Source: Candidatus Woykebacteria bacterium (lineage in GTDB: Bacteria > Patescibacteriota > Microgenomatia > Woykebacterales > RBG-16-39-9b). Taken from it: DNA of 64,000 nt. The DNA is taken from the NCBI GenBank assembly GCA_040876345.1, contig JBBDPM010000006.1, positions 70,803 to 134,802 on the forward strand, given 5' to 3'. Made by a program: the position numbers and the translations under genes. Shown here piece by piece: positions 8,212 to 61,016 of the stretch (position 1 is its first letter; each line of letters opens with the position of its first letter). The notes under the pieces were generated by a model. That model worked only from the letters and a program-made list of their open reading frames with translations. It did no database searches and had not been told where the DNA came from.

Positions 8212-8224
8212 AATACCCCAATAA

Positions 8225-8253
8225 TTGACAGGAACAATCTATACTAATAAAAT
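8225..8253 (+). promoter_or_regulatory. sigma70-like promoter TTGACA-17-TAAAAT
   Basis: TTGACA 8225-8230, 17-nt spacer, TAAAAT 8248-8253; about 50 nt upstream of small ORF at 8305. Confidence 0.3.
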
Positions 8254-8304
8254 CAACCAAGCAACGATCGGCCTGGGCAATCGAAAAGGGAAAGGAGATC
8301 CTGC

Positions 8305-8433
8305 ATGACATTCCGACCTGAAGGAAGCTGGGTGAAAGCCGGGGCAGTAGTCTTGAGTGTAATCATCACGATTATGCTTGGGTTTCTCCTTGGCACTAAG
8401 CCCACTACCGAAGCGACAGGAGGTGACGGATGA
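8305..8433 (+). CDS. small TM peptide (42 aa) in GC-rich islet
   Basis: SD GGAAAGGAG 8288-8296; MTFRPEGSWVKAGAVVLSVIITIMLGFLLGTKPTTEATGGDG; stop overlaps next ATG (ATGA). Confidence 0.35.
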   Translation: MTFRPEGSWVKAGAVVLSVIITIMLGFLLGTKPTTEATGGDG

Positions 8434-8765
8434 AGTCAACGTTTCGCACGGAGGGATTCTGGTCGTCCTTCGTCAATACATTCCTCATTGTGTCGGCGTT
8501 CGTTTGCGCTGTTGCAACCTTCATCCGATTCCTGATGGAGGATGAGCGCTCGACGTCGCGGGAGGTTCAGGAACAACGGGAAGATACCTGGGCTGAACAT
8601 GAGTACGTCTTCCACGGAGGCGCGGTAGGTGCAAGCCATAATGGGCAGCGAAAAACTGTCCTTCAGAGACCAACACACCATGATCCGCGCCAGCACGGAT
8701 TTCGTCGCGTACTACGCGGTAGACAGATCGTCGAACTTAATCCAACGGGAGGTGAGCTGAACTAG
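8430..8765 (+). CDS. hypothetical protein (111 aa) with N-terminal TM, translationally coupled to the 8305 ORF
   Basis: SD AGGAGGTG 8414-8421; ATGA overlap; local GC clearly higher than flanks. Confidence 0.35.
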   Translation: MKSTFRTEGFWSSFVNTFLIVSAFVCAVATFIRFLMEDERSTSREVQEQREDTWAEHEYVFHGGAVGASHNGQRKTVLQRPTHHDPRQHGFRRVLRGRQIVELNPTGGELN

Positions 8766-8826
8766 ACGGTTCCCATCAACCCACTAGAACTCGCGGAGAC
8801 CAAAAATCTTCGCGAGGTTTTAGAAC

Positions 8827-9972
8827 CTACTCAATCCTCAAACTTAAGAGATAACCTAAAATCACAACCGCAGCCGTTGCTAAGAAAGTGGTAGCCGGCC
8901 CCCAAACTTGGTAGAGCGAACCAACCACAATCGGGCTAACAAATCGAGAAAGGCTTCCAAATGAATTCAAAGTTCCTAAAGCCAAACCTTGATCCTTCGA
9001 CCTTTTAGAAATATACGAGTTGTTGGCCGGATTAATTAAAGCTGTTCCCACCGACATTATCGCCAAGACTCCGGCTGATAAAACTTCGCTAAATGCAAAC
9101 GCAACAAGAGCCATGGAGAGAAACATAAAAACAAGGCCGGCTCTCAACACCTTTGCCTCACCATATTTCTCGATAACCTTACCAACAATAAAGGCCTGTA
9201 TCAGGGCACTTACAAGCCCTGAAAAAGCGAATATGTAACCCACTTGTACTGGACCAAGGTTAAATCTTTCTAAGGCTAAAATTGGATAGGCAACTCCTAC
9301 AATTCCGAACGAAAGAAATGAGACTGAAGACATAAGATACATTGGTGCCAGCCTTGATTTCAGCGCCAGGAAAATACTTTCAAAAACAAACCCTTTAAAA
9401 AGATCGAGTTTTTTGGTTCTTTCTTTAATTGTCTCGGGAACCAAAAGGTAAACGAAAACAAGATTGGCAACGGCAATAGCAGCCGAGACGAAAAAAGGAA
9501 AGTGAATTGAAACCTGTGAAAGCACACCCCCGAAAGCAGGACCAGCCGCAATTGCAAGACTGAAAGAAGCAGCTAGTGTCGCCATAACATAGGCCCTTTC
9601 AGATTTGGTAGATATATCAGCACCAGCTGCCTGAGCTGCCGAAAATCCCGCCGCCGAGACAAGACCATGAATTAGTCTGATTAAAATTAGGTGCCAGTAA
9701 CTCTGGGCTAGTCCAAATAAAAAGAATGACAGAGCACTTCCCAAAAGCGAAAATAAGATTATTGGCTTGCGACCAATCCTGTCTGATATATCTCCCCATA
9801 GAGGGGAGAAAAGAAACTGCGTAAGCGGAAACGCCGCAAAAAGAATTGATATTTGAAGCGTGCTTGCTCCAAATTCTTTAGCGTAAAAAGGAAGCAGCGG
9901 AAAGACTATGGAAAAACCCAAGATAAGAGTGAAATTAGTTATAAATAGTAGCGGTAAAACTTGTTTTCGCAT
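8827..9972 (-). CDS. MFS transporter
   Basis: 381 aa, 12 TM; LLPFYAKEFGAS...GDISDRIGRKP (MFS motif A region). Confidence 0.8.
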   Translation of the reverse strand: MRKQVLPLLFITNFTLILGFSIVFPLLPFYAKEFGASTLQISILFAAFPLTQFLFSPLWGDISDRIGRKPIILFSLLGSALSFFLFGLAQSYWHLILIRLIHGLVSAAGFSAAQAAGADISTKSERAYVMATLAASFSLAIAAGPAFGGVLSQVSIHFPFFVSAAIAVANLVFVYLLVPETIKERTKKLDLFKGFVFESIFLALKSRLAPMYLMSSVSFLSFGIVGVAYPILALERFNLGPVQVGYIFAFSGLVSALIQAFIVGKVIEKYGEAKVLRAGLVFMFLSMALVAFAFSEVLSAGVLAIMSVGTALINPANNSYISKRSKDQGLALGTLNSFGSLSRFVSPIVVGSLYQVWGPATTFLATAAVVILGYLLSLRIE

Positions 9973-11774: not shown

Positions 11775-13023
11775 CCTTGCCCATAAGGCAATCCTCGAAC
11801 TCGAAACTCCTTACGGAATCAATGCTTCAGGAAAAGAAGATCGATTTTCCGCTTTCTTTGGCAGAGACTCAATGATAACCTCCTTGAAACTCTTGAGAGT
11901 CTACAAGCGAAACAGAGATAAAGCTTTCTTCAGAATAATTACTAAATGTATCGAAACGGCGGTAAAACTCCAAGGAAAAAGAGTCAACCCCTTGTCTGGC
12001 GAAGAAACTGGAAAAATAATCCACGAATACAGAAAGAGCGGTTATGAGCATTTAGTAAGCCACCGAAATCCTTGGTACTTATACCCTGATAAAACCCTGC
12101 GAAATTACGACTCCATAGACTCAACCCCACTTTTTTTAATTCTGGTCGGTGAATTTTATAAATACACCAAAGATCAAGAATTCTTACAACAAATTCTACC
12201 AAGCGTTGGTGATGCATTTTTCTGGATTAATAACTACGGACATAAGAGGAGAGACGGTCTATTTTTAGAGTACCTACTGCAAAGATCAGACTCTTACGGA
12301 GGTTTGGTGAACCAGGGCTGGATGGATAGCCCCGACTCAATATTGATAAGCGGGGAGTCTCCAAAAGAACCAATTGCATTGGTCGAAGTGCAAGGCTACT
12401 ACTTTAAAGCCTTGAAGCTCTGGGCGTCAATTTACGAAAAAATCGATTCAGAAAAAAGTCGTGACTATCAGAAAAAAGCCCAAGATCTGAAAAAAACTTT
12501 TAACGAACTTTTCCTTCTTAAGACCGAGGAATTAAACTTTTTTGCCCAAGCTATTTTTGGAAGCAAGGCGCTTATTCTCGAAAGAAGGTCAAGCCCAGGG
12601 CATTGCCTGTGGGCTTCTTATGAAGAGGGTGGTAAATTTGAATCCATAATCGATGATAAATTTATACCCGACGTGGTAAAGAGACTTATGAGACCAGATC
12701 TTTTTTTACCTGGTGCCGGCATCCGCACTCTTACGACAAAGTCTAAATTTTTTAACCCTTTGAGCTATCATAATGGTTCTATCTGGCCCTTTGACAATGG
12801 GCTGGCCGCAGAAGGTTTTAACAACTTTGGCTTTTCTAATGAAGCAAAAAAAGTAAGAGACGCCGTGCTTTTGGCAATAAAACACTTTGGCACACCAGTC
12901 GAACTTTATTGCGCCAATTTAGATGGCGCCCTTAGTGAATACAAGGAGGAAGCTGGTCGTCACGGCACACTGGTGCAAGCTTGGACCGCCGCTACTATTC
13001 TTGATTTCACAACGGACTATTAA
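11710..13023 (+). CDS. amylo-alpha-1,6-glucosidase/GDE_C-like glycoside hydrolase
   Basis: 437 aa; FFGRDSMITSLKLL motif typical of debranching-enzyme-like (alpha/alpha)6 barrel hydrolases; overlaps upstream GT4. Confidence 0.6.
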   Translation: MGDQTSENQNQPQKSELESLYNLAHKAILELETPYGINASGKEDRFSAFFGRDSMITSLKLLRVYKRNRDKAFFRIITKCIETAVKLQGKRVNPLSGEETGKIIHEYRKSGYEHLVSHRNPWYLYPDKTLRNYDSIDSTPLFLILVGEFYKYTKDQEFLQQILPSVGDAFFWINNYGHKRRDGLFLEYLLQRSDSYGGLVNQGWMDSPDSILISGESPKEPIALVEVQGYYFKALKLWASIYEKIDSEKSRDYQKKAQDLKKTFNELFLLKTEELNFFAQAIFGSKALILERRSSPGHCLWASYEEGGKFESIIDDKFIPDVVKRLMRPDLFLPGAGIRTLTTKSKFFNPLSYHNGSIWPFDNGLAAEGFNNFGFSNEAKKVRDAVLLAIKHFGTPVELYCANLDGALSEYKEEAGRHGTLVQAWTAATILDFTTDY

Positions 13024-13045
13024 ACCTCTCTGCTATAATGAAGTG

Positions 13046-13774
13046 ATGATTTATCAAGATAAAGACTTGCCAAAAGGCAGCAGCCATAATCCTTTTATTT
13101 ACACCAACTTTGTGACAACGGTCGATGGAAAGGTGCAAGTATTAGAAAACTGGCGCTCATATTGGCCAATCGGTAGTAAGACTGACTACCAAACCCTACT
13201 GGAACTGCGCTCCTTTTCCGATTGTCTGATCCACGGCTCTTCAACTGCCAAAACTTTCAATTTTTCCAAAACTATAAATACGCAGAGTTTAAGAGACTTA
13301 AGAAAAAAACTTGGAAAAAAAGAAACTCTGCCTTACGTGGTTCTTTCAAATAATCCAGATAAAATCTTAGTTGAGAGTTTAAAGTCCAGAAACCAAGAAA
13401 AAACTTACCTAGTAACAAATAACAAAGCGGTCGTAAAAGAAGAAGTAAAGAGCGATGTTAATCTTGTCAGGGCAGGTAAGGAAAAAATAGACCTAAAAGA
13501 TCTAGTATTGTTTTTGGCAAAAAATCTCGGAGCAAAAAGAATTTTGGTGGAGGGTGGACCAAGTGTTTTAGGATCTTTCCTCTCGCAAGATCTGATCGAT
13601 GAAGTCTTTATAACAATCACTCCAAAAATCTTTGGTAACTTTCCCGGCAAAGCATTAACCATGGTAGAAGGTACTCTTTTCCCAGCAGATAAAGTCAAAC
13701 ACCTAAAGTTAATCTCGGCAAAATCAAAAAATGATGAAGTGTTCTTACGTTACCAAATAGTAAAATCCAAATGA
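13046..13774 (+). CDS. RibD C-terminal domain / dihydrofolate-reductase-like reductase
   Basis: Start moved to ATG 13046 after stop of previous gene; FVTTVDGKV...LIHGSSTAKTF...ILVEGGPSVLGSFLSQDLIDEVFITITPKIFG. Confidence 0.6.
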   Translation: MIYQDKDLPKGSSHNPFIYTNFVTTVDGKVQVLENWRSYWPIGSKTDYQTLLELRSFSDCLIHGSSTAKTFNFSKTINTQSLRDLRKKLGKKETLPYVVLSNNPDKILVESLKSRNQEKTYLVTNNKAVVKEEVKSDVNLVRAGKEKIDLKDLVLFLAKNLGAKRILVEGGPSVLGSFLSQDLIDEVFITITPKIFGNFPGKALTMVEGTLFPADKVKHLKLISAKSKNDEVFLRYQIVKSK

Positions 13775-14358
13775 AAGATATCTATTTGGTACGGCACGGA
13801 GAGGCGGCAGATGACGTTGAGGGGCTTTTTGGAGGAGCCGCCGATCATGAACCGACGGAAAAGGGTTTGAGAGATGCCGAAAAGTTTGCTATGAACTTCA
13901 AAAACAAAGAAATTGATATTGTAATTACAAGTCCATATAGAAGAGCCAAGGACCCAGCTAAAACTGTTGCCAAAAAACTCAATGTTCCCGTAGTTGAAAT
14001 AGAGGATCTTCGCGAGAGAAATCATTACGGTATCTTAACTGGAATGAGTCATGAGGGGGCAGCAAAAAAGCACCCGGACCTAGTTGAGGCGGTGAGAAAG
14101 CCAGCTTCCGAAATTGAAGGAGCGGAGCCAAATAAAGATTTTCGAAAAAGAGTGCCAGAAGCAATTGAAAAAATCTGGGAACGACCCGAGAAAAAGGCCT
14201 TAGTTTTTACCCACCTTGGCGTAATATTAGCAGCGCTAGATCTTCATTATGGCGACCTGGAAGTTGAGCATTATGGTTGGGTAAAAATTCAAAAAGAGAA
14301 CAAGGAGTGGAAGACACTAGAAAGCGAAAAAGTAATATTTAACAAGCAGGAGGTGTAG
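13771..14358 (+). CDS. histidine phosphatase family (phosphoglycerate mutase-like)
   Basis: YLVRHGEA (RHG catalytic motif) at N-terminus; 195 aa. Confidence 0.7.
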   Translation: MKDIYLVRHGEAADDVEGLFGGAADHEPTEKGLRDAEKFAMNFKNKEIDIVITSPYRRAKDPAKTVAKKLNVPVVEIEDLRERNHYGILTGMSHEGAAKKHPDLVEAVRKPASEIEGAEPNKDFRKRVPEAIEKIWERPEKKALVFTHLGVILAALDLHYGDLEVEHYGWVKIQKENKEWKTLESEKVIFNKQEV

Positions 14359-14360
14359 AG

Positions 14361-15233
14361 ATGCATATTCACGATCTTGATGTAAGTAAATGCCAAAAAG
14401 AAAAAATTGGAGTTTCCTACAGCGGTGGCGCAAATAGGGGGATCGTCCACCTCGGAATCGCTAAAGCCTTCATTCATCTTGGTATCAAGCCAGGCTTTAT
14501 CGTTGGAGTTTCTTCCGGCAGCATTGCCGCGGCGATTCACGCTTTTAATCCCGATAATTTTGACACAATAAGCCTGACAACAAGCATTATAAAAAAGCTT
14601 AAACGAGCCGACTTCGGCCTTTCCATTCCTCAAATTGTTATCCGAGTCTTAAAGGAGCGCCTTAACCTCCAATCCCTTGGCGACTTATCCGGCTTTAAAA
14701 AAATCGTTGCTGAAAATATTCCCTTTAAAAGCTTCGCGGAAGCAAAAGTCCCTTTTGCAATTGAGGCCGCTAATAGATTAAACAGTCAGCAAACTTGGTT
14801 TGAAGAAGGTCCGGTGATAGAGGCAATGATTGCTTCAAGCTCTTTACCCGTTGCTTTTCCACCTTACAAAATAAACTCCGAACTTTATGTTGATGGTGGG
14901 GTCACCGATGGTCTACCCCTTTTCAAACTAGCCGAAGAAGGCTGCGGGACAATTGTTGCTATTAACTTAGGCTACGCTGGTGAAACCAGAGAGCCACCAA
15001 AAAACCTACTTGAAAACCTTTTTGGCAGTATTGATATAGCCCTTTATCAATCTGATCGCTACGAAGTGGCTCTGGTAAAAGCTCTGTATCCAGATTTAAA
15101 CATAATTGAGGTTCGTCCCGAAGTTGCCTTTGATCTTCCGCCTTTTTCCTTTACTCCAGAAAAAATCGATCCTCTGGTGCAAGAAGCATTTGAAAAAAGT
15201 GTTGAGATTCTCAAGCCCCAATTTAAACTTTAA
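14361..15233 (+). CDS. patatin-like phospholipase (copy 2)
   Basis: SGGANRG, GVSSG, VDGGVTDGLP; SD AGGAGGTG 14345-14352; same length and motif spacing as copy 1. Confidence 0.8.
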   Translation: MHIHDLDVSKCQKEKIGVSYSGGANRGIVHLGIAKAFIHLGIKPGFIVGVSSGSIAAAIHAFNPDNFDTISLTTSIIKKLKRADFGLSIPQIVIRVLKERLNLQSLGDLSGFKKIVAENIPFKSFAEAKVPFAIEAANRLNSQQTWFEEGPVIEAMIASSSLPVAFPPYKINSELYVDGGVTDGLPLFKLAEEGCGTIVAINLGYAGETREPPKNLLENLFGSIDIALYQSDRYEVALVKALYPDLNIIEVRPEVAFDLPPFSFTPEKIDPLVQEAFEKSVEILKPQFKL

Positions 15234-15246
15234 ACAAAGTGTACCG

Positions 15247-21678: not shown

Positions 21679-21805
21679 TCGCATCCCACTTTGACAAACT
21701 AACACCTTTACACCATTTAACTAGTTAGATGAACTACTAACCCTTTTTTTAATTACCAAGGTGGTCGCATATTGGGTGGAGGGTGGTAGGTTCCCAACCA
21801 CCCTC

Positions 21806-22694
21806 CTAGACAACGACGTTCGCTCCCACCCAAGCAGACCAGACTACTAGAGATAGGAACAGGACGTACTTCAAGTTCGTGGCGTGAGACACAGCCTCGT
21901 TTTGTCTTGCAACCCAGACCCGAAGACTCATAATGAGATACAAGACAACGAGTACAAGGAAGGCGATACTCCCCGAGTTGAAAAGGGTGAGACTGATCAG
22001 ACCGGCTATTAAGCTTGTCCCCAGCAGAGACAATGCTGAAATCTGGTAAGAGCGGGTCGCGCCAAACTCAATCGGGAGAGTCCTTTTTCCCAAGTCCCCA
22101 TCGAAGTCCATATCCGCTATGTCCTTCACGATTTCTCGTGAAAACAGAAGCAGTGAGAGCAGGACGCCGGCGAGGACGATGGTCACAAGCCGCTCGGCTG
22201 GTGGGTTCGTAACGATACCAGACGTCAGAGCAACGCTGCACAAGACACTGGTCAGTACGTTTCCCGCCAGACCCGATCTCCTCTTTACCGAGGAGTACGC
22301 GATCACTAATACCGCCACAATCGTGGCAACTGCGACTCCAACGATGCCCAGAAAGAAGGATAGAATGACCCCCCCCCACAATCATCACGTAGGCTTGGAT
22401 CTGGGCCTGACGAGTCGTGATCTCGCCCCTTACGATGGGACGATTTGGGTGGGCTTTTTTGTCGACTTCTAGGTCATAGACGTCATTGAGCGGGTAAACT
22501 GCTGTACCCACTAGTAACACCACCGCCACAGCTATGGCAAGCGACTCCCAGTCCACATTTCCTTCCTGAGCAGAGAGGAAGGAGAGGACGACGGCTGCTG
22601 CCAAAGCAAAGGCGGCCCACAATCGCAGAATACGAATGCGGGCAAGGATCGACTGAAAAGCCGCCCCTGCCAGCAGACTTTCCTGTTTGGCCAC
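21806..22694 (-). pseudogene. UbiA-family prenyltransferase split by frameshift in a G8 (coding strand) homopolymer at 22366-22373
   Basis: Upstream ORF has NDVYDLEVDKKAHPNRPIVRGEIT (first Asp-rich motif). Downstream ORF has DMDFDGDLGKRTLPIEFG (second motif). They join at VGGG; GC-rich. Confidence 0.65.
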
Positions 22695-22852
22695 GGCTCT
22701 ACTCCTTCCTTTGAAACTCTAATACTTACGCCCGGGTAAGTAATATTTGTTATGTTAGCAATGTCGTAGATAATAAGCAATTAAAAGTAGATTTAGGAAA
22801 ATTGGCTGTCTTTTTGTTGACCGGTTAAATTACAAAGAGTAGTATTGGCTCT

Positions 22853-29661: not shown

Positions 29662-29938
29662 GATCTGAGTTTATTTTAGCAATTTCTAGGGGAAAAATAA
29701 ATATGCCTAAGTTGACCAGTTACCCAAAAGGTGTATTATATTTTTACAGGACAGGATCGCTCACACCAGCTCGTTTCGGGAGCAGGGAGGTGATACCGAT
29801 GACCCAAAGCAGTCCGGAACCCATAATTCGGGTAGCGCATAACTTTTCGATGGCGAGAGAGTTAACCCAACGTACGCTTGAGCTTTCACCACTGCGAGCT
29901 CTCTCTGCGGCGTTCAGCCTGAGCAGTACGCTTGGCAG

Positions 29939-30580
29939 TTGGGAACTTTCGATGAGCATTCCGGCCTTGCGATGCCAAGCGTAACGGTCGCTCCGATCGA
30001 AGCACAAGCGCTCCGCCACGGTTTTCTCCCAATACCCTCAGGCATTGTGAATAACGTCGGCTGCCCAGACCAAACTGCCGACCGCCTCGCATTGATCACG
30101 CGCTGGGCTGTGTCCTTAACAGGCAAACCAATCTGCTACTCAGGCCACAGTCTAGGAGGCTTAATTGCCAAGGCGGTGAGCAGACGTGTTCCACAAGGCT
30201 ACGTGTCTGGAGTCGTCTCTATGGGAACACCTATGAGTGATGTTTGCGTGAACCCACTAATGGATCAGGCAACCATGATCCTAGGGCTCGCGAACGAACT
30301 TGCGTTGGCAAGAAGTGGATGTTTCCGAGGAACGTGTGGATGTCGTTTCGTCGATGATGCACGAAGTGATCTACTCGACGATGTGACGTACTTCTCCTTC
30401 TTCACGAGAGACGACCAAGTTGTCGAACCCGAGGGCTGCCTACTACCGGAAAGCCACAACTGTCAAAACATCGAGGTGGCGGGGACACACTCTGGGCTAC
30501 CGGATAACCCCCAGGTGCTGGCTCAATTACCAACAGTTCTCGCAGCAATCTTCCAAAGAAGACCTAGGATAACCGCCTGA
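29939..30580 (+). CDS. lipase/esterase-like alpha/beta hydrolase (GC-rich islet); start uncertain
   Basis: LRHGF (oxyanion HG) and YSGHSLGGLIAKAV (GxSxG); surrounded by overlapping antisense ORFs typical of high-GC DNA. Confidence 0.5.
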   Translation: MGTFDEHSGLAMPSVTVAPIEAQALRHGFLPIPSGIVNNVGCPDQTADRLALITRWAVSLTGKPICYSGHSLGGLIAKAVSRRVPQGYVSGVVSMGTPMSDVCVNPLMDQATMILGLANELALARSGCFRGTCGCRFVDDARSDLLDDVTYFSFFTRDDQVVEPEGCLLPESHNCQNIEVAGTHSGLPDNPQVLAQLPTVLAAIFQRRPRITA

Positions 30581-30759
30581 CCTTGTGCATGCGTGGGGTT
30601 AGGCGGTTCGCATTTATCTAATCTTTAGTTAGTATTGAAAAATGAGATCAGATTTACCCGAGATGAGGTTTAGATATGATAATATCCCAAAATATCATAC
30701 CACATCAGTAAACTCCCCTGCAGACTTTAACTGACTAACCACTAGAATAGATATCTTGT

Positions 30760-33984: not shown

Positions 33985-34531
33985 AGATAATTGAATAAAC
34001 AAGTTAGTATGGGTGATGGTAGGTTGGGACGAAACAGGCTACCTCTCCCCAACCCTTTTGAACTCCGCCATCAACCCGTGGTCTTTGGTGGTCGGAGGGA
34101 CATCTGAACAGCAAAGTGGGCGTCATCGATGTCAACCAGAAACTCGTGAAACCACTAATCATCGGAGTTGACGACGAATCGGTGGAACTTCACTATTTCG
34201 GTCTCTATCCACCCGAACGACACTGTATTAGACTCTGGAGTGATCGCACACTCCACCACCCATCGTGCCGAGTCCTCACCGTACTTCACGTCTCTCGCTG
34301 TTTGCTAGCCGCCGCATCCGGTCCACAGGTCACAAAGGTCAGATCCGCCTCCGTGAGTGTATTACCAATTCCGACTTTTGTTCTCACTGCCTTCAGCCTC
34401 CTTTTGCATAAGCGCGCCCACAAGTTGGGCTCATTCCACCAAAACCCATAGTCTGGTGTCAAGCCGTAAACAAGCACAATCCTCGCTTGCGCAAGGATGA
34501 CTAAGGTGGGGGATTATGCTAAACTAGGTTT

Positions 34532-43540: not shown

Positions 43541-43741
43541 AAAGAGGGTTTAACTTTATACGCAACCATATTAAATCCTGGGTAAAGAATACGCAACCAT
43601 CAGTTTTTACTTAAATTCTGAAAAATATTAATATAAATTTGACTCCGTTTGGTAGAATTAACTAACGCTACGAAGTCGCTGATGGTCTCAGTGCAAAAAC
43701 GACGGAGATAGGAGTTCTGCGATGAGAGAGCCGCCCCGCAA

Positions 43742-43873
43742 AGAAGGTGCGACTATGGGGGAGTTCAAGACGATTCTCATCCTCGTAGTAGTCGCAATCG
43801 GACTAAGCACAGCAGTCTGCTTTCGGGCCCAAATCTTCGGCTTGCTCTTCTAGTATCTTGTGTCCGAACTTAA
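43742..43873 (+). CDS. small hydrophobic peptide (43 aa) in GC-rich patch
   Basis: SD-like TAGGAG 7 nt upstream; MREPPRKEGATMGEFKTILILVVVAIGLSTAVCFRAQIFGLLF. Confidence 0.25.
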   Translation, partial: RRCDYGGVQDDSHPRSSRNRTKHSSLLSGPNLRLALLVSCVRT

Positions 43874-44590
43874 GACGCCAGGCTGGCAAACCTTGGTATC
43901 CAAGAGAGGCCAGCTTTCTCACTTATAAATCCTTTATTTGTGAACCTAAAAGTGCCATTTTTGCTTGATATATCAGCCATTTATAGTCCTATAGCGCTTA
44001 CTTGACAAGAGGGCCAGGGAGGTGGCAGTTTAGTGTATAAACTGCTATTATTGACTGCCATATCAGCCTTTTTGGGGTTTTTATGGAAAGGAATTTCCGG
44101 GGAATTTTTACAAAACGAATAAAAATAGAGTACGGGGCAACTTAGAGGAGAAAATAAATGATCTATAGAGCGAAGAAGAAAGGAGAAAAACAAATACTTT
44201 GCCCGGCAGGGAGGCTGGCGTGACGTCGCATAACCATCATTGTGCGACGTAACATTAAATCAAGGCTAGGGCTCTAAAAGACCAGTGCGTACACTTCTAG
44301 AGTGGTGCGGAAAAATAAGGGGCAAAACTTTTTTTCTAAACTTTTTCTCCACTACTAAGTAACCATCTACATTATTAAAACGTCTTCTAGGGCATTATAG
44401 CGCCTTGCCCCAAGGTTACAAATCGGTCCTTATAAATCCCATCTACATTCCTAAACCCAAGTTCCTGAATAATTCCAATTTTGCTTGATATAACATTCAA
44501 TAATTTACCTTTTAGGTTCAATTTTGGTTAGGTTTTTTTTCTATATAAACCTAGAGAGAGAGAGGTAGCACTCTACCTCGGAGTGCGCAA

Positions 44591-55633: not shown

Positions 55634-56131
55634 TAGATTAGCGATTAGTCACACTAATAAACAATCACTGATTTAATTTTAACAGAAGCTTGGAAAAAGA
55701 AAAACGACCCGGATGGTCATATAAACTCACCACTTTGGGTCATTTCTCTTCCAAAGAAAACCAACCATTATTGATTTGCTTAGGATCTGAGGAAGCGTAG
55801 CGGAATCATTTGTTTGTCCGCTTTCTCATCTTTTCAGATGCTTCTCTCACGGCGTCTGACGACGCTTATTCAGGTCGGTCAATGCAGGCGGCCTCTCAAC
55901 TCGCACAGAAACAGCCGACCATGATGACAAGCCATACCCACAGCTACGACCCCAGCTACTGTGACCCCAATCACGGTGTCACTTAAGAAACAAGTCGTGT
56001 AAAGATGGCCCCATCACGTTCAACAACAAGTCTCTAATTATCCCCTTCTCCTTTACCACTTCAAAGTGAACTACTCTTACAGCGAGTGCCCACTAAGCAG
56101 TGTTGTGCAAGGATAGCTTGCCAGTAGATCA

Positions 56132-56494
56132 CTAAGAAGCGGCCCGAGCTCGCTCCTCTTTGACTGAACTACTGTACCTCGCAAACCTTCCGCCGGACCA
56201 CCTCCAAACTTCGCTGCCACCTGGCAGTCTGTACGTTATTTGCCCCGGCTCAAACTCCTTGTCTCCAACCCTGGTCACGGAAAAGGAGCCACCGAGTACC
56301 TGGTGCCTAGTATCGTCCCTCATTCTGAACTCGAAGGTGATATCATCACCATCGGTTCGCGTGTTGGTTAAGAACGGAAGAATGTCGATCGCGCCACACG
56401 ATAGCGCCTCTCCAAGTGTCATCACCAACTCCTCCTTGAGTTCTCGGATTCTGCTCCGATCCCACTGCATAACTAGCGTGATCAATTTTAACAA
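56132..56494 (-). CDS. hypothetical protein (GC-rich islet)
   Basis: 120-aa ORF, no recognisable family; flanked by about 430 bp GC-rich non-coding DNA. Confidence 0.3.
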   Translation of the reverse strand: MLKLITLVMQWDRSRIRELKEELVMTLGEALSCGAIDILPFLTNTRTDGDDITFEFRMRDDTRHQVLGGSFSVTRVGDKEFEPGQITYRLPGGSEVWRWSGGRFARYSSSVKEERARAAS

Positions 56495-56514
56495 AGTGAC
56501 CTATGGATGTCAAA

Positions 56515-57429
56515 CTATGGGTTTTGTTGGTTGCGTTCGCCTAGCCTATCAAAAATTATTTGGAGATCCGGAGGTAGCTTGCTTTCAAAATGGATTCTAA
56601 TGCCCGTTTTTGGGTGGGTAAACTCAAGGTAACTTGCATGGAGGAATTGGCGCCTGCCAAGGGCTTTCCCACCATACAGTCGATCACCAACAATTGGATG
56701 GCCAATGTGGGAAAGATGAACACGGATTTGGTGAGTGCGACCTGTTTTTGGCGCAGCCTCCAAAAGATCAAACTTTTCACCTACATGACTAATCAGACTA
56801 TATTTAGTCATCGCCTCTCGACCCTCTTTATCAACTGCAAATTTTTTGCGATTAACTACGTGCCGACCGATTGGGGCATCGATAGACCCAAAGGTCTTCT
56901 CAACTCTACCCTGCACTAGACAAGTGTATTTTTTAACTACGCTTCTTTCTTTAAACTGTTTCTTCAAAGACTCTAGCGATTTCTCATTTTTGGCTACTAC
57001 TATCAATCCACTAGTTCCTTTATCGAGGCGGTGGACAATACCAGGCCTTAGTGACTCTCCAGAGCCTGGAACGCTCTTAAGATAAAAAAGAACAGCGTTG
57101 ACCAAAGTACCTGAGGGATGATCCAGTGTGGGATGAGTAACTAACCCTGCCTCTTTATCAATTACTAATATACCTTTGTCTTCATAAACTATTTTTAAGG
57201 GAATATTTTCTGGTCTAACTTCTGTTGTTCTGGGCAGTGGAATTTCAAGAGTAATAACGTCGCCTCTTGTTGGTTTATGGTCTGACGTTGTAGGTTGACT
57301 GTTTACCTTAATATTTTCTTCGTGGATAAGTTTTTTTATTTGACTTCTAGAAAGGGACTTTACCTTTGCAGCTAAGAACTGGTCTAGACGGCGCTCTTTA
57401 GGGGTAACTTTAAGCTCTATCTTCCTCAC
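56515..57429 (-). CDS. rluD: RluA-family 23S rRNA pseudouridine synthase (RluD-like) with S4 domain
   Basis: HRLDKGTSGLIVVAKN catalytic motif; N-terminal S4 RLDQFLA... Confidence 0.8.
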   Translation of the reverse strand: MRKIELKVTPKERRLDQFLAAKVKSLSRSQIKKLIHEENIKVNSQPTTSDHKPTRGDVITLEIPLPRTTEVRPENIPLKIVYEDKGILVIDKEAGLVTHPTLDHPSGTLVNAVLFYLKSVPGSGESLRPGIVHRLDKGTSGLIVVAKNEKSLESLKKQFKERSVVKKYTCLVQGRVEKTFGSIDAPIGRHVVNRKKFAVDKEGREAMTKYSLISHVGEKFDLLEAAPKTGRTHQIRVHLSHIGHPIVGDRLYGGKALGRRQFLHASYLEFTHPKTGIRIHFESKLPPDLQIIFDRLGERNQQNP

Positions 57430-57815
57430 TACTTACCTTTATTCAAAAAGACTTTTACCTCGTTGAGTACTTGGTCAGGATTCATGGCACTCTTGACCAA
57501 ATAACCGGAAGCTCCAAGGGAAAAGCCTTCTTTAATTATTGAGTCCTGACCCAAATTTGTCAGCAACACTACTGGACCATTTTTTGGTTTTTTATCTTGA
57601 GCACGGCGCAAGATTTCCAAACCATCAATTTTGGGAAGCATTATGTCAAGCAAAACTAAGCTGTAACCACCTTCAAGAAACTTGTCCAATCCGTCTTGTC
57701 CGTTAGAAGCAAGCTCAACTTCGTAGCCTTCTCCCTTAAGAAGCTCTTCATAAAGCTCTCTTAAAAATTGATCGTCTTCTATAACTAAGATTTTTTGTCC
57801 TTTATCTTCAGCCAT
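57429..57815 (-). CDS. stand-alone response-regulator receiver (CheY-like)
   Basis: KILVIEDD...LVLLDIMLPKIDGLEIL...GASGYLVKS. Confidence 0.8.
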   Translation of the reverse strand: MAEDKGQKILVIEDDQFLRELYEELLKGEGYEVELASNGQDGLDKFLEGGYSLVLLDIMLPKIDGLEILRRAQDKKPKNGPVVLLTNLGQDSIIKEGFSLGASGYLVKSAMNPDQVLNEVKVFLNKGK

Positions 57816-57858
57816 ATATTAATTTTAACATATGCCAAGTATTTATAAAAAGTGAGGT

Positions 57859-58200
57859 CTACCTCCTAACCTTACCTTCGCACCCAACGTGATAAGCTGC
57901 GGTTGGCATGGCCTTGAGGCGCTCTTCAGAAATTTCTTTACCACATTTTTTACATGTCCCGTATTTCCCCTCTTCGATTCTCAAAAGAGCCCCCTCTACT
58001 TCAGAAAGACGCTGCTTCAAATTTAGTCTTGTAGCGACAATCCGGTCATGGCCTTCGGTTTCCGTAATATCGTCATCCACAGTATTTGTTGTGGCTCTAT
58101 CGGGCAGAAGATACGGATCCTCCTTTTTATAGTAGTCAAGTTCTTTAATAAGCTGCTCCTTTTCCGCGGAGAGTTTCTTTTCAATTTCTTTTAAATCCAC
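57859..58200 (-). CDS. DksA/TraR-family C4 zinc-finger protein
   Basis: CKKCGKEISEERL...YHVGCEG (Cys4), coiled N-terminus. Confidence 0.7.
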   Translation of the reverse strand: MDLKEIEKKLSAEKEQLIKELDYYKKEDPYLLPDRATTNTVDDDITETEGHDRIVATRLNLKQRLSEVEGALLRIEEGKYGTCKKCGKEISEERLKAMPTAAYHVGCEGKVRR

Positions 58201-58212
58201 AACTGTTCCTTT

Positions 58213-59034
58213 CTAGATTCTTAATCTTCTCAAAACCCTACCATTTACAGACAGAATAAACTTCAAAAATCCTCGTAAGTCCTCTTTTAAATTTCTCAAG
58301 TTTAGATAGTATAAAGTAAAAAGGCTAACTAAGGCAACCAATAGACTAACTATCTGGGCAGATTTCATTCCAAAAATGTAAATAGAGTCGGCACGGAAGA
58401 GTTCAAATACAAAACGCCCAGAGGAGAGAAAAAACAAACCCTGCAAAAACACTTTACCACTTTTTATCTCCCTCTCTTTTAAGTTGTCCTCATAAACTTT
58501 TTTAAAAATTACAAAAAGCAGCACCGCATACCCTGCTTCATATAATTGGACGGGGTGGCTCTCTCCCAGTAAACTTGAGGCTTGAGTTGCCCAGGGTAGC
58601 GAAGAAGCAGTACCGTACTCAACTCCAGCTAAAAAAGCACCTGTCTTGGCAAAAATTAAAGCCACAAGAGCGGCTAAAAAGGAAAAATCGGCGACTTGAA
58701 GGGTTGTCCATTTCCAACGTCTGGTAAACACTAACCCAACACTTATTACCCCAAATAAAGCTCCAAAAAAATGTAAATCTCCTCTCCAAAATGCTAAAAG
58801 TGAGAGTGGATCATCAAAGGCACTACCAAGGTCAAATAAAAAGCCATAAAGCCGGCCACCAACTAAAGCAGCGATTAAGGATAGAAGAGAAAGATCCAAA
58901 AGTTTTTCACTTTGGTAACCTTGACGTCTGCCTTCCCGCCAAAAAATAAAAGTACCGACAATGTAGGCAGCCACCAAGAAAAATCCGTAGGAATAAATTG
59001 TTACTGGCCCTAGTTTTAAAAGTACGGGAAACAT
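58213..59034 (-). CDS. lgt: prolipoprotein diacylglyceryl transferase
   Basis: GGRLYGFLFD...FWRGDLHFFGALFG Lgt signature region. Confidence 0.8.
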   Translation of the reverse strand: MFPVLLKLGPVTIYSYGFFLVAAYIVGTFIFWREGRRQGYQSEKLLDLSLLSLIAALVGGRLYGFLFDLGSAFDDPLSLLAFWRGDLHFFGALFGVISVGLVFTRRWKWTTLQVADFSFLAALVALIFAKTGAFLAGVEYGTASSLPWATQASSLLGESHPVQLYEAGYAVLLFVIFKKVYEDNLKEREIKSGKVFLQGLFFLSSGRFVFELFRADSIYIFGMKSAQIVSLLVALVSLFTLYYLNLRNLKEDLRGFLKFILSVNGRVLRRLRI

Positions 59035-59078
59035 ATTAAATCTTAACTATAATGGTGAGTTTTTCCGCTTTTTATAAA

Positions 59079-60563
59079 TTATTTCTCCAACTCTTCAATT
59101 AATTTAACTAGGGTCCTTACTCCCACCCCAGTTGGTCCTTTGGCTATATATGGCTTTTCATTTCCTTGCCAGGCAGTCGCGCCAATATCCATGTGGATCC
59201 AAGGATTTTTATTCTCAATAAATTGTTCTAAAAACATTGCCCCCGCAATAACATCGGCTGCCCGAGTTGGCGGAATATTGGCCATATCCGCAATGTCGCT
59301 TCGCAAAAGATCTGTGTACTCCGGATAAAGTGGTAGCTGCCAGGCTCTCTCACCCACTTTTTCCCCAGATTCTATTACAGAATCAACCCATACTTGGGGT
59401 TTACCCATAATACAACTTGCTTCCTCCCCTAAAACAACTGTTGTCGCTCCAGTTAAAGTGGAAAACTCAAAAATCTTTTTTGCCCCAAGTTTTTGAGCCC
59501 AAACTAGAGAGTCTGAAAGCACTACCCTACCCTCCGCATCAGTGTTTAAAATCTCAATTGTTTTTCCGTTCAAAGCTTTAACTACATCCCCTGGTTTTGT
59601 GGCTCTTCCAGAAGGCATATTCTCCGTCAAAGGCACCACTGCCACAATATTTATCTTTGGTTTTAGTTCCCCAACTACCTTCATAAATCCTAAAGTTGCG
59701 GCCGCGGCCGCCATATCCATTTTCATATCATGCATTTTATCCCCGGGCTTAAGGGAAATCCCACCAGTATCAAAAGTTATTCCCTTACCGACAACTCCCA
59801 AAGTATTTTCATCCTTTACCTTACCGCCTTTATACTTTAAAGCAACGATAAATGATGGCTCTTCACTCCCCTTTGCAATCGCTCCAAAGCCTCCCATGCC
59901 TCTCTTCTTAGCTTCACCTTCATCCAAAACTTCGATATCATAGTGATATTCTTTTGCCAATTTTCGCGCTTCCTGAACAAGATAAGAAGGCGTCATTACA
60001 TTAGCTGGCTCAGCAACAAGGTGGCGGGCCCAATTTGTAGCTTCACAAACTGCTTGAGAGTGTTTAAGCAGCTTCTCGTCAACCTTGCCAGTAATAATTA
60101 ACTCCTCAAGTTTGTTCTCGTTTTTCTTAGTTTTGTAAATTCCCGGATCAAAGATCCCAAGAAGGGCTCCTTCGATAACTTCTCCGGCCGTTTCCCCCTT
60201 TTCCAAGCAAAAAGCTAAAGAGACGGCGCCAATTTTTTGGGCGCGTCTGGCCGCAGTCCCAGCCAAGTTTCTGGCAATTCGAGGTGAAAAATCAGCTTTC
60301 TTACCGCCCCCAATCAAAAGAACTCTGATTGAGGGGATTTTGCCATGGGTGAAAATAGAGGTAACTTCGTAGAGTTTTCCCTTAAATTCTTTCAGGCGAA
60401 TAACTTCAGATATAGAGCCACTGATCTTTTTGTCAAGCTCGTCAATAGCCCCTTGAGGCTTTTCACCATCAAATAAAACTATGGCCAAAGCATCGGCCTT
60501 TACTTTATCCAAAGGTTGATCAGTGGTTAAGATTTTCATAACAATGGATTGTATCAAATTCAA
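59079..60563 (-). CDS. pepA: leucyl aminopeptidase (M17)
   Basis: NTDAEGRVVLSD signature, 494 aa. Confidence 0.85.
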   Translation of the reverse strand: MNLIQSIVMKILTTDQPLDKVKADALAIVLFDGEKPQGAIDELDKKISGSISEVIRLKEFKGKLYEVTSIFTHGKIPSIRVLLIGGGKKADFSPRIARNLAGTAARRAQKIGAVSLAFCLEKGETAGEVIEGALLGIFDPGIYKTKKNENKLEELIITGKVDEKLLKHSQAVCEATNWARHLVAEPANVMTPSYLVQEARKLAKEYHYDIEVLDEGEAKKRGMGGFGAIAKGSEEPSFIVALKYKGGKVKDENTLGVVGKGITFDTGGISLKPGDKMHDMKMDMAAAAATLGFMKVVGELKPKINIVAVVPLTENMPSGRATKPGDVVKALNGKTIEILNTDAEGRVVLSDSLVWAQKLGAKKIFEFSTLTGATTVVLGEEASCIMGKPQVWVDSVIESGEKVGERAWQLPLYPEYTDLLRSDIADMANIPPTRAADVIAGAMFLEQFIENKNPWIHMDIGATAWQGNEKPYIAKGPTGVGVRTLVKLIEELEK

Positions 60564-60662
60564 GATAGGTTTGACAAGAAAAAGTCGGGTCGTGAGGCAG
60601 ACGCTTCGGACGATTCAACGTCTGCCCCACAAAATCGTGATCTCTCAAGACCCGGTCGGGTG

Positions 60663-60983
60663 TTATCCGAGCTTGACCGCCAAACATGTCGTCGTCCGGT
60701 CGACACCCTCGATATTCTGGATTTCCCCAGTAATACAGTTACCGAGGCGATCAAGATCGTCAGACTGAAGCTGGACGATCAAATCGTATGGGCCGGTGAC
60801 GGTGTCAGTGGATACGACCTTCGCAAAGTCGCTGTCCAGTGCTTGGATCTTCTCACCAACACTCTTGGCCCTTCCTACCTCTGCCTCGATCAGCACGTAC
60901 CCTCTTACCATCGTGGGAACTCCTTTCTTCAACTCCGATGGCTTGCTTGCCCGTGTTGGGAATATTACTACTACACCAGCCAA
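60663..60983 (-). CDS. stand-alone Lrp/AsnC ligand-binding (RAM) domain protein (GC-rich islet)
   Basis: VRGYVLIEAEVGRAKSVGEKIQALDSDFAKVVSTDTVTGPYDLIVQLQSDDLDRLGNCITGEIQNIEGVDRTTT; probable start at internal Met (about 60911). Confidence 0.5.
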   Translation of the reverse strand: MAGVVVIFPTRASKPSELKKGVPTMVRGYVLIEAEVGRAKSVGEKIQALDSDFAKVVSTDTVTGPYDLIVQLQSDDLDRLGNCITGEIQNIEGVDRTTTCLAVKLG

Positions 60984-61016
60984 AAATCAAATTGCACCGG
61001 ATTTTTATCTTAAAAA

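What the first reader, a model, noticed from the sequence alone, without database searches (positions are those of the whole stretch)
8220..61010. Mosaic of eight short GC-rich islets carrying foreign-looking, partly decayed genes
Eight discrete segments of about 55-60% GC are embedded in about 40% GC DNA. They lie at about 8.2-8.8 kb (small peptides) and 15.2-16.8 kb (VanZ-like and CAP-domain proteins). Further ones lie at 21.8-22.7 kb (UbiA prenyltransferase, frameshifted), 29.7-30.6 kb (lipase, GHSLGG) and 34.0-34.5 kb (multi-frameshift remnant). The remaining ones are at 43.7-43.9 kb (small peptide), 55.7-56.5 kb (non-coding plus a 120-aa ORF) and 60.5-61.0 kb (stand-alone Lrp/AsnC RAM domain). 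None is flanked by integrase or transposase. The pattern suggests repeated small horizontal acquisitions from a high-GC donor, followed by decay. This would be expected for an epibiont of a high-GC host. The alternative is assembly chimerism.
Basis: partly seen in the sequence, partly recalled or inferred. Interest (0 to 1): 0.6.

Follow-up and report, generated by a model that had tools for sequence, protein, structure and literature searches.

The report
Foreign GC-rich gene islets in CPR genome
Seven short GC-rich patches in this small-genome Woykebacteria (CPR) chromosome are real, are not assembly errors, and are best read as gene- or domain-sized pieces of foreign DNA, some already decaying; for one of them (a CAP domain) the source lineage can be named as Chloroflexota.

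Summary
A two-state GC model finds seven islets (8257-8801, 15337-16838, 21756-22709, 29747-30611, 34011-34512, 55840-56468, 60584-60960), each 53-55% GC in a 40.9% background. The eighth (43.7-43.9 kb) is marginal. Islet ORFs have GC3 of 0.53-0.72, against 0.29-0.44 for backbone genes.

Chimerism is rejected. Two independent per-run Logan assemblies are 100% identical to the window across islets 2, 3, 4, 5, 7 and 8.

The genome is a Candidatus Woykebacteria MAG (GCA_040881185.1). One relative has empty sites where islets 4 and 5 sit. Other relatives carry their own GC-rich CAP and lipase-like genes.

The CAP domain is closest to Chloroflexota proteins (61-71% aa). In a sister contig, a 424-nt CAP-domain segment is 91% nt-identical, without gaps, to a 65%-GC Chloroflexi gene. 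It is fused in frame to a CPR-type N-terminus.

Decay is shown for UbiA (frameshift at the window's only C9 run) and for the lipase (N-terminus lost).

A single donor is not supported: UbiA looks archaeal-like, and the lipase's nearest relative is in another Patescibacterium. Some islets are old and syntenic rather than recent. HGT into Patescibacteria is already documented, so this is a new member of a known kind, with a useful host lead.

The parts
8257..8801 (.). Islet 1. GC-rich (54%) spacer between the convergent copA-type ATPase (5998-8211, +) and an MFS transporter (8827-9972, -). It holds two overlapping small ORFs, 8305-8433 (42 aa) and 8430-8765 (111 aa), that share the start motif TFR(P/T)EG(S/F)W followed by a hydrophobic helix. 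PGAP calls no gene here.
   Evidence: HMM; ORFs; GC3 0.57; coding-like 3-periodicity for 8452-8800; no Pfam or PHROG hit in any frame; no fold signal (z -1.6 and -0.2); no gene called in L179
15337..16838 (.). Islet 2. It holds a VanZ-like membrane protein (15284-15682, minus strand) and a CAP/SCP (YkwD-like) secreted or anchored protein (15912-16781, plus strand). The CAP protein is a chimera. Its N-terminal module is seen only in Woykebacteria-like contigs. Its C-terminal CAP domain (about 16368-16781, GC3 0.72) is closest to Chloroflexota.
   Evidence: identical in Logan assemblies
21756..22709 (-). Islet 3. A UbiA-family prenyltransferase pseudogene (21806-22694) split into two ORFs by a +1 frameshift inside a C9 run (G9 on the coding strand) at 22369-22377. 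Removing one G restores a 295-aa protein.
   Evidence: the phase switch is visible in the frame plot; the same frameshift is present in three assemblies
29747..30611 (+). Islet 4. A lipase-like alpha/beta-hydrolase (GHSLGG) ORF at 29939-30580. It lacks the N-terminal ~70-86 residues of its family, including the oxyanion-hole strand. The upstream 29662-29960 carries stop-interrupted or shifted remnants. PGAP does not call it as a protein.
   Evidence: empty site in L096; intact syntenic ortholog in L178; identical in a Logan assembly
34011..34512 (.). Islet 5. A 548-bp GC-rich spacer between TreT-type glycosyltransferase (ends 33984) and the 120-aa membrane protein gene (starts 34532). No gene is recognisable. 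The same junction is 40 bp in L096 and ~110 bp in L004. In L010 it holds a different GC-rich insert (an ICMT-like ORF plus a CAP gene).
   Evidence: fold z +0.40; periodicity only in the first ~150 nt
43688..43935 (+). Islet 6 (marginal, not called by the HMM). A 43-aa ORF at 43722-43853 with a Flp-prepilin-like G/ATMGEF motif, inside a 1.3-kb gene-poor stretch.
   Evidence: (Flp1_like E=0.016, below cutoff)
55840..56468 (-). Islet 7. An orphan 112-aa ORF (56132-56470, minus strand; called by PGAP; GC3 0.62) plus ~290 nt of GC-rich non-coding DNA upstream of the Kef-type antiporter gene.
   Evidence: AF2 pLDDT 72.7 with a helix plus six-stranded sheet and no significant PDB match; fold z about -3.2 on both strands; no Rfam hit
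60584..60960 (-). Islet 8. A stand-alone RAM (AsnC/Lrp ligand-binding) domain protein, 60663-60983 (106 aa, or 82 aa from an internal start), between the pepP and pepA genes.
   Evidence: best PDB matches are 75-92-aa stand-alone RAM proteins 2djw, 2cvi, 2e1a, 2zbc; identical in Logan assemblies

Best explanation
The islets are gene-sized or domain-sized segments of foreign DNA embedded in the AT-biased chromosome of a Candidatus Woykebacteria (CPR/Patescibacteria) bacterium.

They were inserted at intergenic junctions, or swapped in frame into a resident gene in the case of the CAP domain. No mobile-element machinery is associated with them. The most likely route is uptake of environmental or neighbour DNA followed by illegitimate or homeologous recombination; this step is inferred.

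Once resident, they drift towards AT and lose function. UbiA is broken at a homopolymer, the lipase has lost its N-terminus, and islets 1, 5 and part of 7 retain nothing recognisable.

The sources are several. Chloroflexota is shown for the CAP domain. An archaeal-type lineage is suggested weakly for UbiA. The others are unknown.

The same two families (CAP and lipase-like) are GC-rich in every Woykebacteria-like relative that carries them, including at syntenic positions across saturated synonymous divergence. The best-fitting dynamic is therefore source-sink turnover: repeated re-import or replacement from GC-rich genomes, decay, loss and re-import. A single old wave of transfers fits less well.

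The cargo is dominated by envelope or secreted proteins: CAP, VanZ, lipase, a membrane prenyltransferase, a pilin-like peptide and small membrane peptides. This is what one expects for surface or partner-interaction functions, but that reading is inferred.
For: Real and non-random composition.

Not chimeric: per-run Logan assemblies of SRR27977658 and SRR27977662 are 100% identical to the window over 12853-25659, 27624-38829 and 46515-64000.

Organism: the RarA relatives at 74-76% identity are Woykebacteria MAGs.

Insertion polymorphism: L096 has the same flanking genes but gaps of <=130 bp and 40 bp where the window has islets 4 and 5. L004 also lacks islet 5. L010 has a different GC-rich insert there.

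Foreign origin of CAP:
- The best named homologs are Chloroflexi/Dehalococcoidia (61-71% over the domain). Patescibacterial hits score lower.
- In Chloroflexi the gene sits beside core ribosomal or SRP operons in 65% GC contigs.
- The NJ tree places the window, L176 and L010 CAP domains with different non-CPR sequences.
- L176 carries a 424-nt segment, running from the first CAP-domain codon to the stop codon, that is 91.3% nt-identical and ungapped to Chloroflexi MAG GCA_022562415.1. It lies between unrelated AT-rich flanks. Third-position differences are 14 GC->AT against 3 AT->GC.

Decay.

Renewal rather than legacy: window vs L178 four-fold-type sites are saturated (0.30-0.40 identity) in the backbone and in the lipase. 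Even so, lipase GC3 is 0.53/0.49 against backbone 0.37/0.29, and CAP GC3 differs by copy: 0.81 in L176, 0.72 in the window and 0.57 in L178.

No mobility genes and no shared repeats.

Prior knowledge: HGT and genomic islands are common in Patescibacteria, and competence or pili are proposed as a route (PMC12455944).
Against: A donor is demonstrated for only one islet component, the CAP domain. The strongest evidence for it (91% nt identity) comes from a sister contig, not from the window, whose own CAP domain is only 71.6% nt-identical to the sampled Chloroflexi gene.

UbiA, lipase, VanZ, RAM and the orphan ORFs have no close GC-rich homolog in the searches run. The closest lipase is patescibacterial.

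The lipase and CAP genes are syntenic between the window and L178. This also fits vertical inheritance with some force (selection or GC-biased gene conversion) holding GC up.

The NJ trees are unbootstrapped and star-like. The integration mechanism is not observed. No read-level data were available. Taxon names of MAGs are taken from the depositors.
Confidence: 0.72

Rival explanations
1. Assembly or binning chimera: GC-rich reads from another organism were stitched into a CPR contig.
For: The source is a MAG. The islets are short and compositionally foreign.
Against: The NCBI MAG contig and two Logan per-run assemblies are 100% identical, without gaps, across 12 of the 14 borders of the seven HMM-called islets, and they share the same UbiA frameshift. 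The flanks of islet 1 are also reproduced in a Logan contig. Homologous islets occur at syntenic sites in independent MAGs from other studies (L178, L010, L176). In-frame fusion of the CAP domain to a CPR-type N-terminus is seen in two genomes.
Confidence: 0.02
2. Resident, vertically inherited genes whose GC content is held high by an intrinsic force. Candidates are GC-biased gene conversion at recombination hot spots, or selection on codon or mRNA properties of envelope genes. On this reading the islets are not imports.
For: Lipase and CAP occupy conserved positions in the window and in L178. They are GC-rich in both genomes despite saturated synonymous divergence. The window and L178 lipases are sisters in the tree. 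No close GC-rich donor was found for the lipase, UbiA, VanZ or RAM genes.
Against: There is direct evidence of import for the CAP domain. Empty sites for islets 4 and 5 exist in relatives. Islets 5, 7 and most of 1 have no function on which selection could act. Pseudogenisation of UbiA and the lipase argues against strong selection. The CAP domains of the three CPR genomes are not monophyletic.
Confidence: 0.15
3. The gene-less islets (1, 5 and the non-coding part of 7) are GC-rich structured non-coding RNA genes, as in the classical GC-island signal of ncRNAs in AT-rich genomes.
For: They are GC-rich, intergenic and have no protein family in any frame. Islet 7 folds better than shuffles, with z of -3.3 to -3.6.
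Against: Rfam gives no hit even at E<=1. Islets 1 and 5 fold no better than shuffles (z -1.6, -0.2 and +0.4). The islet 7 signal is the same on both strands (z -3.25 and -3.13), which points to local palindromes rather than a strand-specific RNA. Islet 5 is absent from three relatives. No homologous sequence is available to test covariation.
Confidence: 0.05
4. The islets are the eroded remains of one or a few larger mobile elements (prophage, ICE or plasmid insertions) that were later fragmented by deletion and rearrangement.
For: The backbone is rearranged relative to L004 and L010. The cargo has an accessory-gene flavour. The CAP gene has a PHROG 'moron' hit.
Against: There are no integrase, transposase, phage structural or conjugation genes next to any islet. 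There are no shared terminal repeats. The islets are separated by conserved, syntenic housekeeping genes. The best-resolved event (L176) is a 424-nt in-frame domain swap, not an element insertion.
Confidence: 0.05

Closest known systems
Horizontally transferred genes and genomic islands in Patescibacteria (Gios et al. 2025, mSystems, PMC12455944)
   Same: CPR genomes carry compositionally deviant, horizontally acquired segments covering up to 13% of genome length. Donors include non-CPR phyla. Competence and pili are proposed as a route. Here the islets cover 8.4% of the window.
   Different: The islets here are much smaller (0.4-1.5 kb, one gene or one domain) than the islands found by island-prediction tools. 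They are GC-richer than the host genome, lack mobility genes, and several are pseudogenised. Chloroflexota does not appear in that paper's text or in its donor table.
Amelioration model of horizontally acquired DNA (Lawrence and Ochman 1997; from my own knowledge)
   Same: Imported GC-rich DNA drifts towards the recipient's AT-biased composition. The L176 CAP segment shows the expected excess of GC->AT changes at third positions.
   Different: Syntenic lipase and CAP copies stay 13-20 GC3 points above the backbone across saturated divergence. One import plus amelioration cannot produce this. Renewal or a maintaining force is needed.
CAP/SCP/YkwD-family secreted proteins of bacteria (Pfam PF00188; PDB 4ifa)
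   Same: The C-terminal 120-140 residues match the CAP profile (E 7e-16) and the YkwD subfamily domain model (100 bits).
   Different: The score is below the NCBIfam YkwD cutoff (171 bits). The N-terminal half is a module found only in Woykebacteria-like contigs, where the Chloroflexi proteins have a Pro/Thr-rich linker.
Archaeal-type UbiA prenyltransferases (DGGGP synthase group; NCBIfam PRK12884/PRK12882)
   Same: These are the best profile matches. The closest database relatives sit next to PcrB (GGGP synthase) and RadA in archaeal-looking contigs.
   Different: Identity is only 34-42%, and scores (117-133 bits) are far below the equivalog cutoffs (269-296). The gene is frameshifted in a G9 run.
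Stand-alone RAM domain proteins (e.g. Thermus thermophilus 2djw, Pyrococcus 2cvi/2e1a)
   Same: It is 82-106 aa, contains an AsnC_trans_reg domain only, and has no HTH.
   Different: Nothing unusual apart from its GC-rich composition in this genome.

Membership tests
Horizontally acquired compositional islet | Base and codon composition deviates from the resident genome beyond chance | tested here: met
   Seven HMM islets against 0.8 in 100-bp block shuffles. GC3 is 0.53-0.72 against 0.29-0.44.
Horizontally acquired compositional islet | Presence/absence polymorphism at an otherwise conserved junction in relatives | tested here: met
   Islets 4 and 5 are absent from L096 and islet 5 from L004. 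L010 has a different insert at the islet-5 site. Not testable for islets 1, 2, 3, 7 and 8 because no syntenic relative was fetched.
Horizontally acquired compositional islet | The gene's closest relatives lie outside the recipient's lineage | tested here: inconclusive
   Met for the CAP domain (Chloroflexota). Weakly met for UbiA (archaeal-type context, 34-42% identity). Not met for the lipase, whose closest relative is patescibacterial at 46%.
Classical genomic island / integrative element | Integrase or transposase, a tRNA or other att site, and flanking direct repeats | tested here: not met
   No such Pfam families occur in any neighbour. The only tRNA is at 63836. No repeats are shared by or flank the islets.
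Assembly chimera | Junctions are not reproducible in independent assemblies | tested here: not met
   The window is 100% identical to two Logan per-run assemblies across islets 2, 3, 4, 5, 7 and 8. Read-level coverage could not be tested with these tools.
Structured ncRNA (GC island in an AT-rich genome) | Match to a known family, or folding energy and covariation beyond controls | tested here: not met
   No Rfam match at gathering score or at E<=1. z is -1.6, -0.2 and +0.4 for islets 1 and 5. Islet 7 gives z about -3.2 on both strands, which is inconclusive. No homologs are available for covariation.
Phase-variable contingency locus (UbiA islet) | A homopolymer tract inside the ORF whose length sets the reading frame | tested here: met
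   The C9 run at 22369-22377 is the only G/C run of 7 or more bases in 64 kb. It lies exactly at the frame switch, and a G8 run would restore a 295-aa ORF.
Phase-variable contingency locus (UbiA islet) | Tract length varies within or between populations | not testable with these tools
   All three assemblies show nine bases. Read-level length distributions are not available.
CAP/SCP superfamily | Pfam PF00188 above the gathering score | tested here: met
   59.6 bits against a cutoff of 21.1. PDB 4ifa SCP domain, E 1.4e-10.
UbiA prenyltransferase family | PF01040 match over the full profile in one intact ORF | tested here: not met
   Profile positions 4-80 and 80-247 are matched by two different ORFs in different frames, so the gene is interrupted.

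The most novel reading that the evidence does not exclude
Woykebacteria repeatedly capture cell-envelope protein modules, above all the CAP/YkwD domain, from Chloroflexota by in-frame, domain-precise replacement onto their own N-terminal anchor. The GC-rich islets would then be a turnover record of DNA taken from a physically associated high-GC partner (source-sink import, decay and re-import). If so, the islets name the otherwise unknown host lineage of this CPR group. They would also point to molecular mimicry or host-tracking of a surface protein.
Probability: 0.25. Interest if true: 0.7.

Novelty: new member of a known kind. Interest (0 to 1): 0.45.

Why it matters
Hosts of most CPR lineages, Woykebacteria included, are unknown, and cultivation is rare. 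Small, compositionally foreign islets that can be traced to a donor phylum give a sequence-only lead to the partner organism. Here the lead is a 424-nt CAP-domain segment, 91% identical to a Chloroflexi gene, fused in frame into a CPR gene of a sister lineage.

The data also show that a streamlined genome can take up foreign DNA one gene or one domain at a time, without mobile elements. They show that such imports decay quickly. And they show that a GC anomaly can outlast synonymous saturation, so composition alone cannot be read as recency.

As a general phenomenon, HGT into Patescibacteria is already documented, so the finding refines existing knowledge rather than overturning it.

Tried and rejected
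- Shared repeats or a common mobile element among the islets: none found.
- Rfam at gathering score and at E<=1: only tRNA-Leu and one chance hit outside the islets.
- RNA folding of islets 1 and 5: no signal. Islet 7 gives a modest signal that is symmetric between strands.
- Six-frame Pfam scans of islets 1, 5, 6 and 7 at E<=1: nothing credible.
- PHROGs for ten islet ORFs: only the CAP domain hits a 'sporulation protein' moron family.
- tblastx and blastx of the gene-less islets against all fetched loci and proteins: no match. Islet 5 is therefore not a recognisable remnant of the CAP/ICMT cassette that occupies the same site in L010.
- Metagenome scan with a TreT alignment: only one close relative (L096). 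The other 79 loci were distant.
- LysM identity of the CAP N-terminal module, which looked LysM-like by eye: not supported by Pfam, so it is not claimed.
- Structure of the orphan ORF112: a confident-enough fold but no significant PDB neighbour.
- PDB search for the lipase: no hit.
- Single-donor idea: rejected because the affinities differ between CAP, UbiA and the lipase.
- Plasmid and phage nucleotide searches were not run, as they were judged low-yield.

Full report

The window is 42.0% GC, and 200-bp windows vary more than binomial sampling allows (sd 0.054 vs 0.035). A two-state HMM (40.5% vs 55% GC) calls seven segments:
- 8257-8801
- 15337-16838
- 21756-22709
- 29747-30611
- 34011-34512
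- 55840-56468
- 60584-60960

Each is 52.8-54.9% GC. Together they cover 5374 bp (8.4% of the window), and the rest of the window is 40.9% GC. Shuffling 100-bp blocks leaves on average 0.8 segments and 400 bp.

The eighth (43.7-43.9 kb) reaches only 48% over 305 bp and is not called, although its 43-aa ORF has GC3 of 0.66. The stated 55-60% applies to 200-bp peaks, not to segment means.

The anomaly is not an amino-acid effect. Third-position GC of islet ORFs is 0.53-0.72 (one 42-aa ORF is at 0.49), against 0.29-0.44 for about 60 backbone ORFs.

- VanZ and CAP in islet 2.
- UbiA split over two frames in islet 3.
- A GHSLGG alpha/beta-hydrolase in islet 4.
- A RAM domain without an HTH in islet 8.

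No integrase or transposase lies near any islet. The islets share no repeats.

**2. Origin of the sequence, and the chimera alternative**

Exact-protein look-ups place the window on contig JBBEDR010000006.1 (586 kb) of GCA_040881185.1. The closest RarA relatives in the species-representative genome set are Candidatus Woykebacteria MAGs, at 76% and 74% aa identity. The organism is therefore a CPR/Patescibacteria bacterium.

Two Logan assemblies made independently from single runs (SRR27977658 and SRR27977662) are 100% identical to the window, with no gaps, over 12853-25659, 27624-38829 and 46515-64000. That covers both borders of islets 2, 3, 4, 5, 7 and 8, and the UbiA frameshift. The flanks of islet 1 are also reproduced in a Logan contig. 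Chimerism is rejected. Read-level coverage could not be examined.

**3. Comparative anatomy**

Five Woykebacteria-like loci were obtained. L004 and L010 are labelled Woykebacteria and L178 is labelled Patescibacteria group. L096 and L176 are unlabelled, and their assignment rests on synteny and protein similarity.

- **L096** (37% GC) has the same gene order as the window: kinase, GHMP kinase, His_Phos, TreT, 120-aa membrane protein, ClpB-like. Its junctions are <=130 bp and 40 bp where the window has 1098 bp (islet 4) and 548 bp (islet 5).
- **L004** also lacks islet 5.
- **L010** carries a different GC-rich insert at that same junction: an ICMT-like ORF plus a CAP gene.
- **L178** (backbone about 35% GC) has an intact 277-aa lipase at the same position as islet 4, divergent from the orthologous 765-aa kinase. 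It also has a CAP gene next to the tRNA-binding protein gene. Both are about 49% GC.

The same HMM calls islets in L010 (the lipase and the CAP domain only), in L178 (CAP, a non-coding patch and the lipase) and in L176 (the CAP domain). It calls none in L096 or L004.

GC-rich islets are therefore a feature of the lineage. They are variable between genomes, and they repeatedly involve the same two families.

**4. Where the DNA came from**

*CAP.* Among 5.8 billion proteins, the best named homologs of the window CAP protein are Chloroflexi/Dehalococcoidia. They are 61-71% identical, but only over the C-terminal CAP domain. Patescibacterial hits are lower.

In Chloroflexi the gene lies next to rpsL-rpsG-fusA or ffh-rpsP-rimM, in 65% GC contigs, with GC3 of 0.81-0.85. 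It is therefore at home there.

The only full-length homolog (P0002, on contig L176) shares the window's N-terminal module. That module is absent from the Chloroflexi proteins.

L176 is decisive:
- Its flanks are 34-37% GC.
- Its right-hand neighbour is a homolog of window 24177-24563.
- Its N-terminal half has GC3 of 0.41.
- A 424-nt block running from the first CAP-domain codon to the stop codon is 91.3% identical, ungapped, to Chloroflexi MAG GCA_022562415.1.
- There is no similarity on either side of that block.
- Third-position differences are 14 GC->AT against 3 AT->GC.

That is a recent, domain-precise transfer from Chloroflexi to the CPR lineage, and it is already ameliorating.

The window's own CAP domain is older, or comes from an unsampled donor. 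It is 71.6% nt-identical to that Chloroflexi gene and has GC3 of 0.72. In an unbootstrapped NJ tree, the window, L176 and L010 CAP domains each sit with different non-CPR sequences.

*UbiA.* The reconstructed protein has only 34-42% identical relatives. The best of them are next to PcrB and RadA in about 50% GC, archaeal-looking contigs. The best NCBIfam models are DGGGP-synthase-type, but scores are far below their cutoffs.

*Lipase.* The word-based search found only a 31% identical Nocardioidaceae hydrolase. The exhaustive HMMER search found 496 relatives. The closest (46%) is the L178 protein from a Patescibacteria MAG.

A single high-GC donor is not supported.

**5. Decay**

*UbiA.* The two halves meet at a C9 run (22369-22377). 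This is the only G/C homopolymer of 7 or more bases in 64 kb. Deleting one base gives an uninterrupted 295-aa protein, and the codon-phase plot switches at that point. All three assemblies carry nine bases. Whether this is phase variation or a fixed lesion cannot be decided here.

*Lipase.* The ORF aligns to its relatives only from their residue ~70-87 onward. It therefore lacks the strand that carries the oxyanion-hole motif. The upstream sequence is interrupted by stops or shifted in frame, and PGAP calls no protein there.

*Islets 1, 5, 6 and 7.* None gives a Pfam hit in any frame.
- Islet 5 keeps coding-like periodicity for only about 150 nt.
- Islet 1 holds two small membrane-peptide ORFs.
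- Islet 7 holds a 112-aa ORF with clear periodicity and a plausible predicted fold. Both remain orphans.

**6. Age of the islets and the dynamic**

Between the window and L178, four-fold-type sites are saturated in the backbone genes (0.30-0.40 identity) and in the lipase (0.40). Lipase GC3 is nevertheless 0.53 and 0.49, against backbone values of 0.37 and 0.29.

Under a simple mutation-bias model (my own calculation, so an inference), saturation implies that less than about 10% of an initial GC3 excess should remain. A single ancient import cannot explain the excess that is observed.

Two possibilities remain. The copies are renewed from GC-rich sources, as the CAP domain visibly is: its GC3 is 0.81, 0.72 and 0.57 in three genomes. 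Alternatively, an intrinsic force such as gBGC or selection keeps GC high. I favour renewal (source-sink turnover) for three reasons: it is directly seen for CAP, empty sites exist, and several islets are dead. The rival is not excluded for the lipase.

**7. Mechanism**

No mobility genes, tRNA targets or flanking repeats accompany the islets. The best-resolved event is a 424-nt in-frame swap.

The most economical route is uptake of foreign DNA, then illegitimate or homeologous recombination, then selection for in-frame products. Competence and pili are widely reported in Patescibacteria (PMC12455944). This step is inferred and not shown. No competence genes were looked for outside the window.

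**8. Rival readings**

- The ncRNA reading fails on Rfam and on folding controls. Only a weak, strand-symmetric signal in islet 7 remains.
- The eroded-mobile-element reading lacks any supporting gene.

**9. Comparison with what is known, and verdict**

HGT and genomic islands in Patescibacteria are documented (PMC12455944). In kind, this finding is therefore a new member of a known class. Four things are less ordinary:
- The very small, gene- or domain-sized grain of the imports.
- Their GC-rich rather than AT-rich character.
- The recurrent involvement of CAP and lipase-like envelope proteins.
- The Chloroflexi link, which gives a testable lead to the unknown partner of Woykebacteria.

Interest is moderate (0.45).

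Noticed in passing
window 43541-44877: Gene orientation switches here: plus-strand genes lie to the left and minus-strand genes to the right. Cumulative GC skew falls steadily from this point, as at a replication-terminus-type convergence. The 1.3-kb gene-poor stretch carries a 35-nt inverted repeat (43941-43975 / 44486-44520) and three copies of a 37-nt repeat (43948, 44038, 44468)..
   Followed up: no
window 25464-29661: Two tandem paralogous HisKA_7TM-PAS histidine kinases share 72-83% nt-identical blocks (25536-25765 / 27475-27704 and 25972-26242 / 27911-28181). Both Logan contigs break at 25659, inside the first block..
   Followed up: partly
window 38585-42708: Three consecutive ORFs (366, 688 and 299 aa) with no Pfam family, built from 261-nt (87-aa) repeat units. 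The same repeat proteins occur in the Woykebacteria relatives L004 and L010..
   Followed up: no
window 22369-22377: This C9 run is the only G/C homopolymer of 7 or more bases in 64 kb, and it sits exactly at the UbiA frameshift. It is a candidate slipped-strand switch, or simply the lesion that killed the gene..
   Followed up: partly
window 43722-43853: A 43-aa ORF with a Flp-prepilin-like motif (G/ATMGEF followed by a hydrophobic stretch). Pfam Flp1_like gives E=0.016, below the cutoff. GC3 is 0.66..
   Followed up: partly
window 8305-8765: Two overlapping small ORFs (42 and 111 aa, joined by an ATGA overlap) begin with the same motif TFR(P/T)EG(S/F)W followed by a transmembrane-like helix. 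They look like a tandem pair of related small membrane peptides with no known family..
   Followed up: partly
L176 655-1078 vs L177 4517-4940: A 424-nt CAP-domain segment is 91.3% identical between a Woykebacteria-like contig (ENA ERZ27267408 k141_1084309) and a Chloroflexi MAG (GCA_022562415.1). It is bounded exactly by the domain start and the stop codon. The locus-tag prefixes (IIB21 for the Chloroflexi MAG, IID23 for the Patescibacteria MAG of L178) suggest both MAGs come from the same submission batch..
   Followed up: yes
window 4957-5820 and 14361-15233: There are two patatin-like phospholipase paralogs. The first is the ortholog of the single patatin gene next to His_Phos-RarA in L004 and L010 (74-76% identity), and the second is only 42-46% identical. 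The window backbone is rearranged relative to those relatives, with RarA moved about 17 kb away..
   Followed up: no
window 49816-52536 and 47500-47805: A 906-aa DUF87/TrwB_AAD_bind (HerA/VirB4/TraG-like) ATPase and a HepT-like toxin ORF lie in the backbone. Neither is adjacent to an islet..
   Followed up: no
L178 2910-3429: The relative L178 has its own non-coding GC-rich patch (48.5% GC against a ~35% backbone) between the holin-like gene and the kinase gene. It has no counterpart in the window..
   Followed up: no
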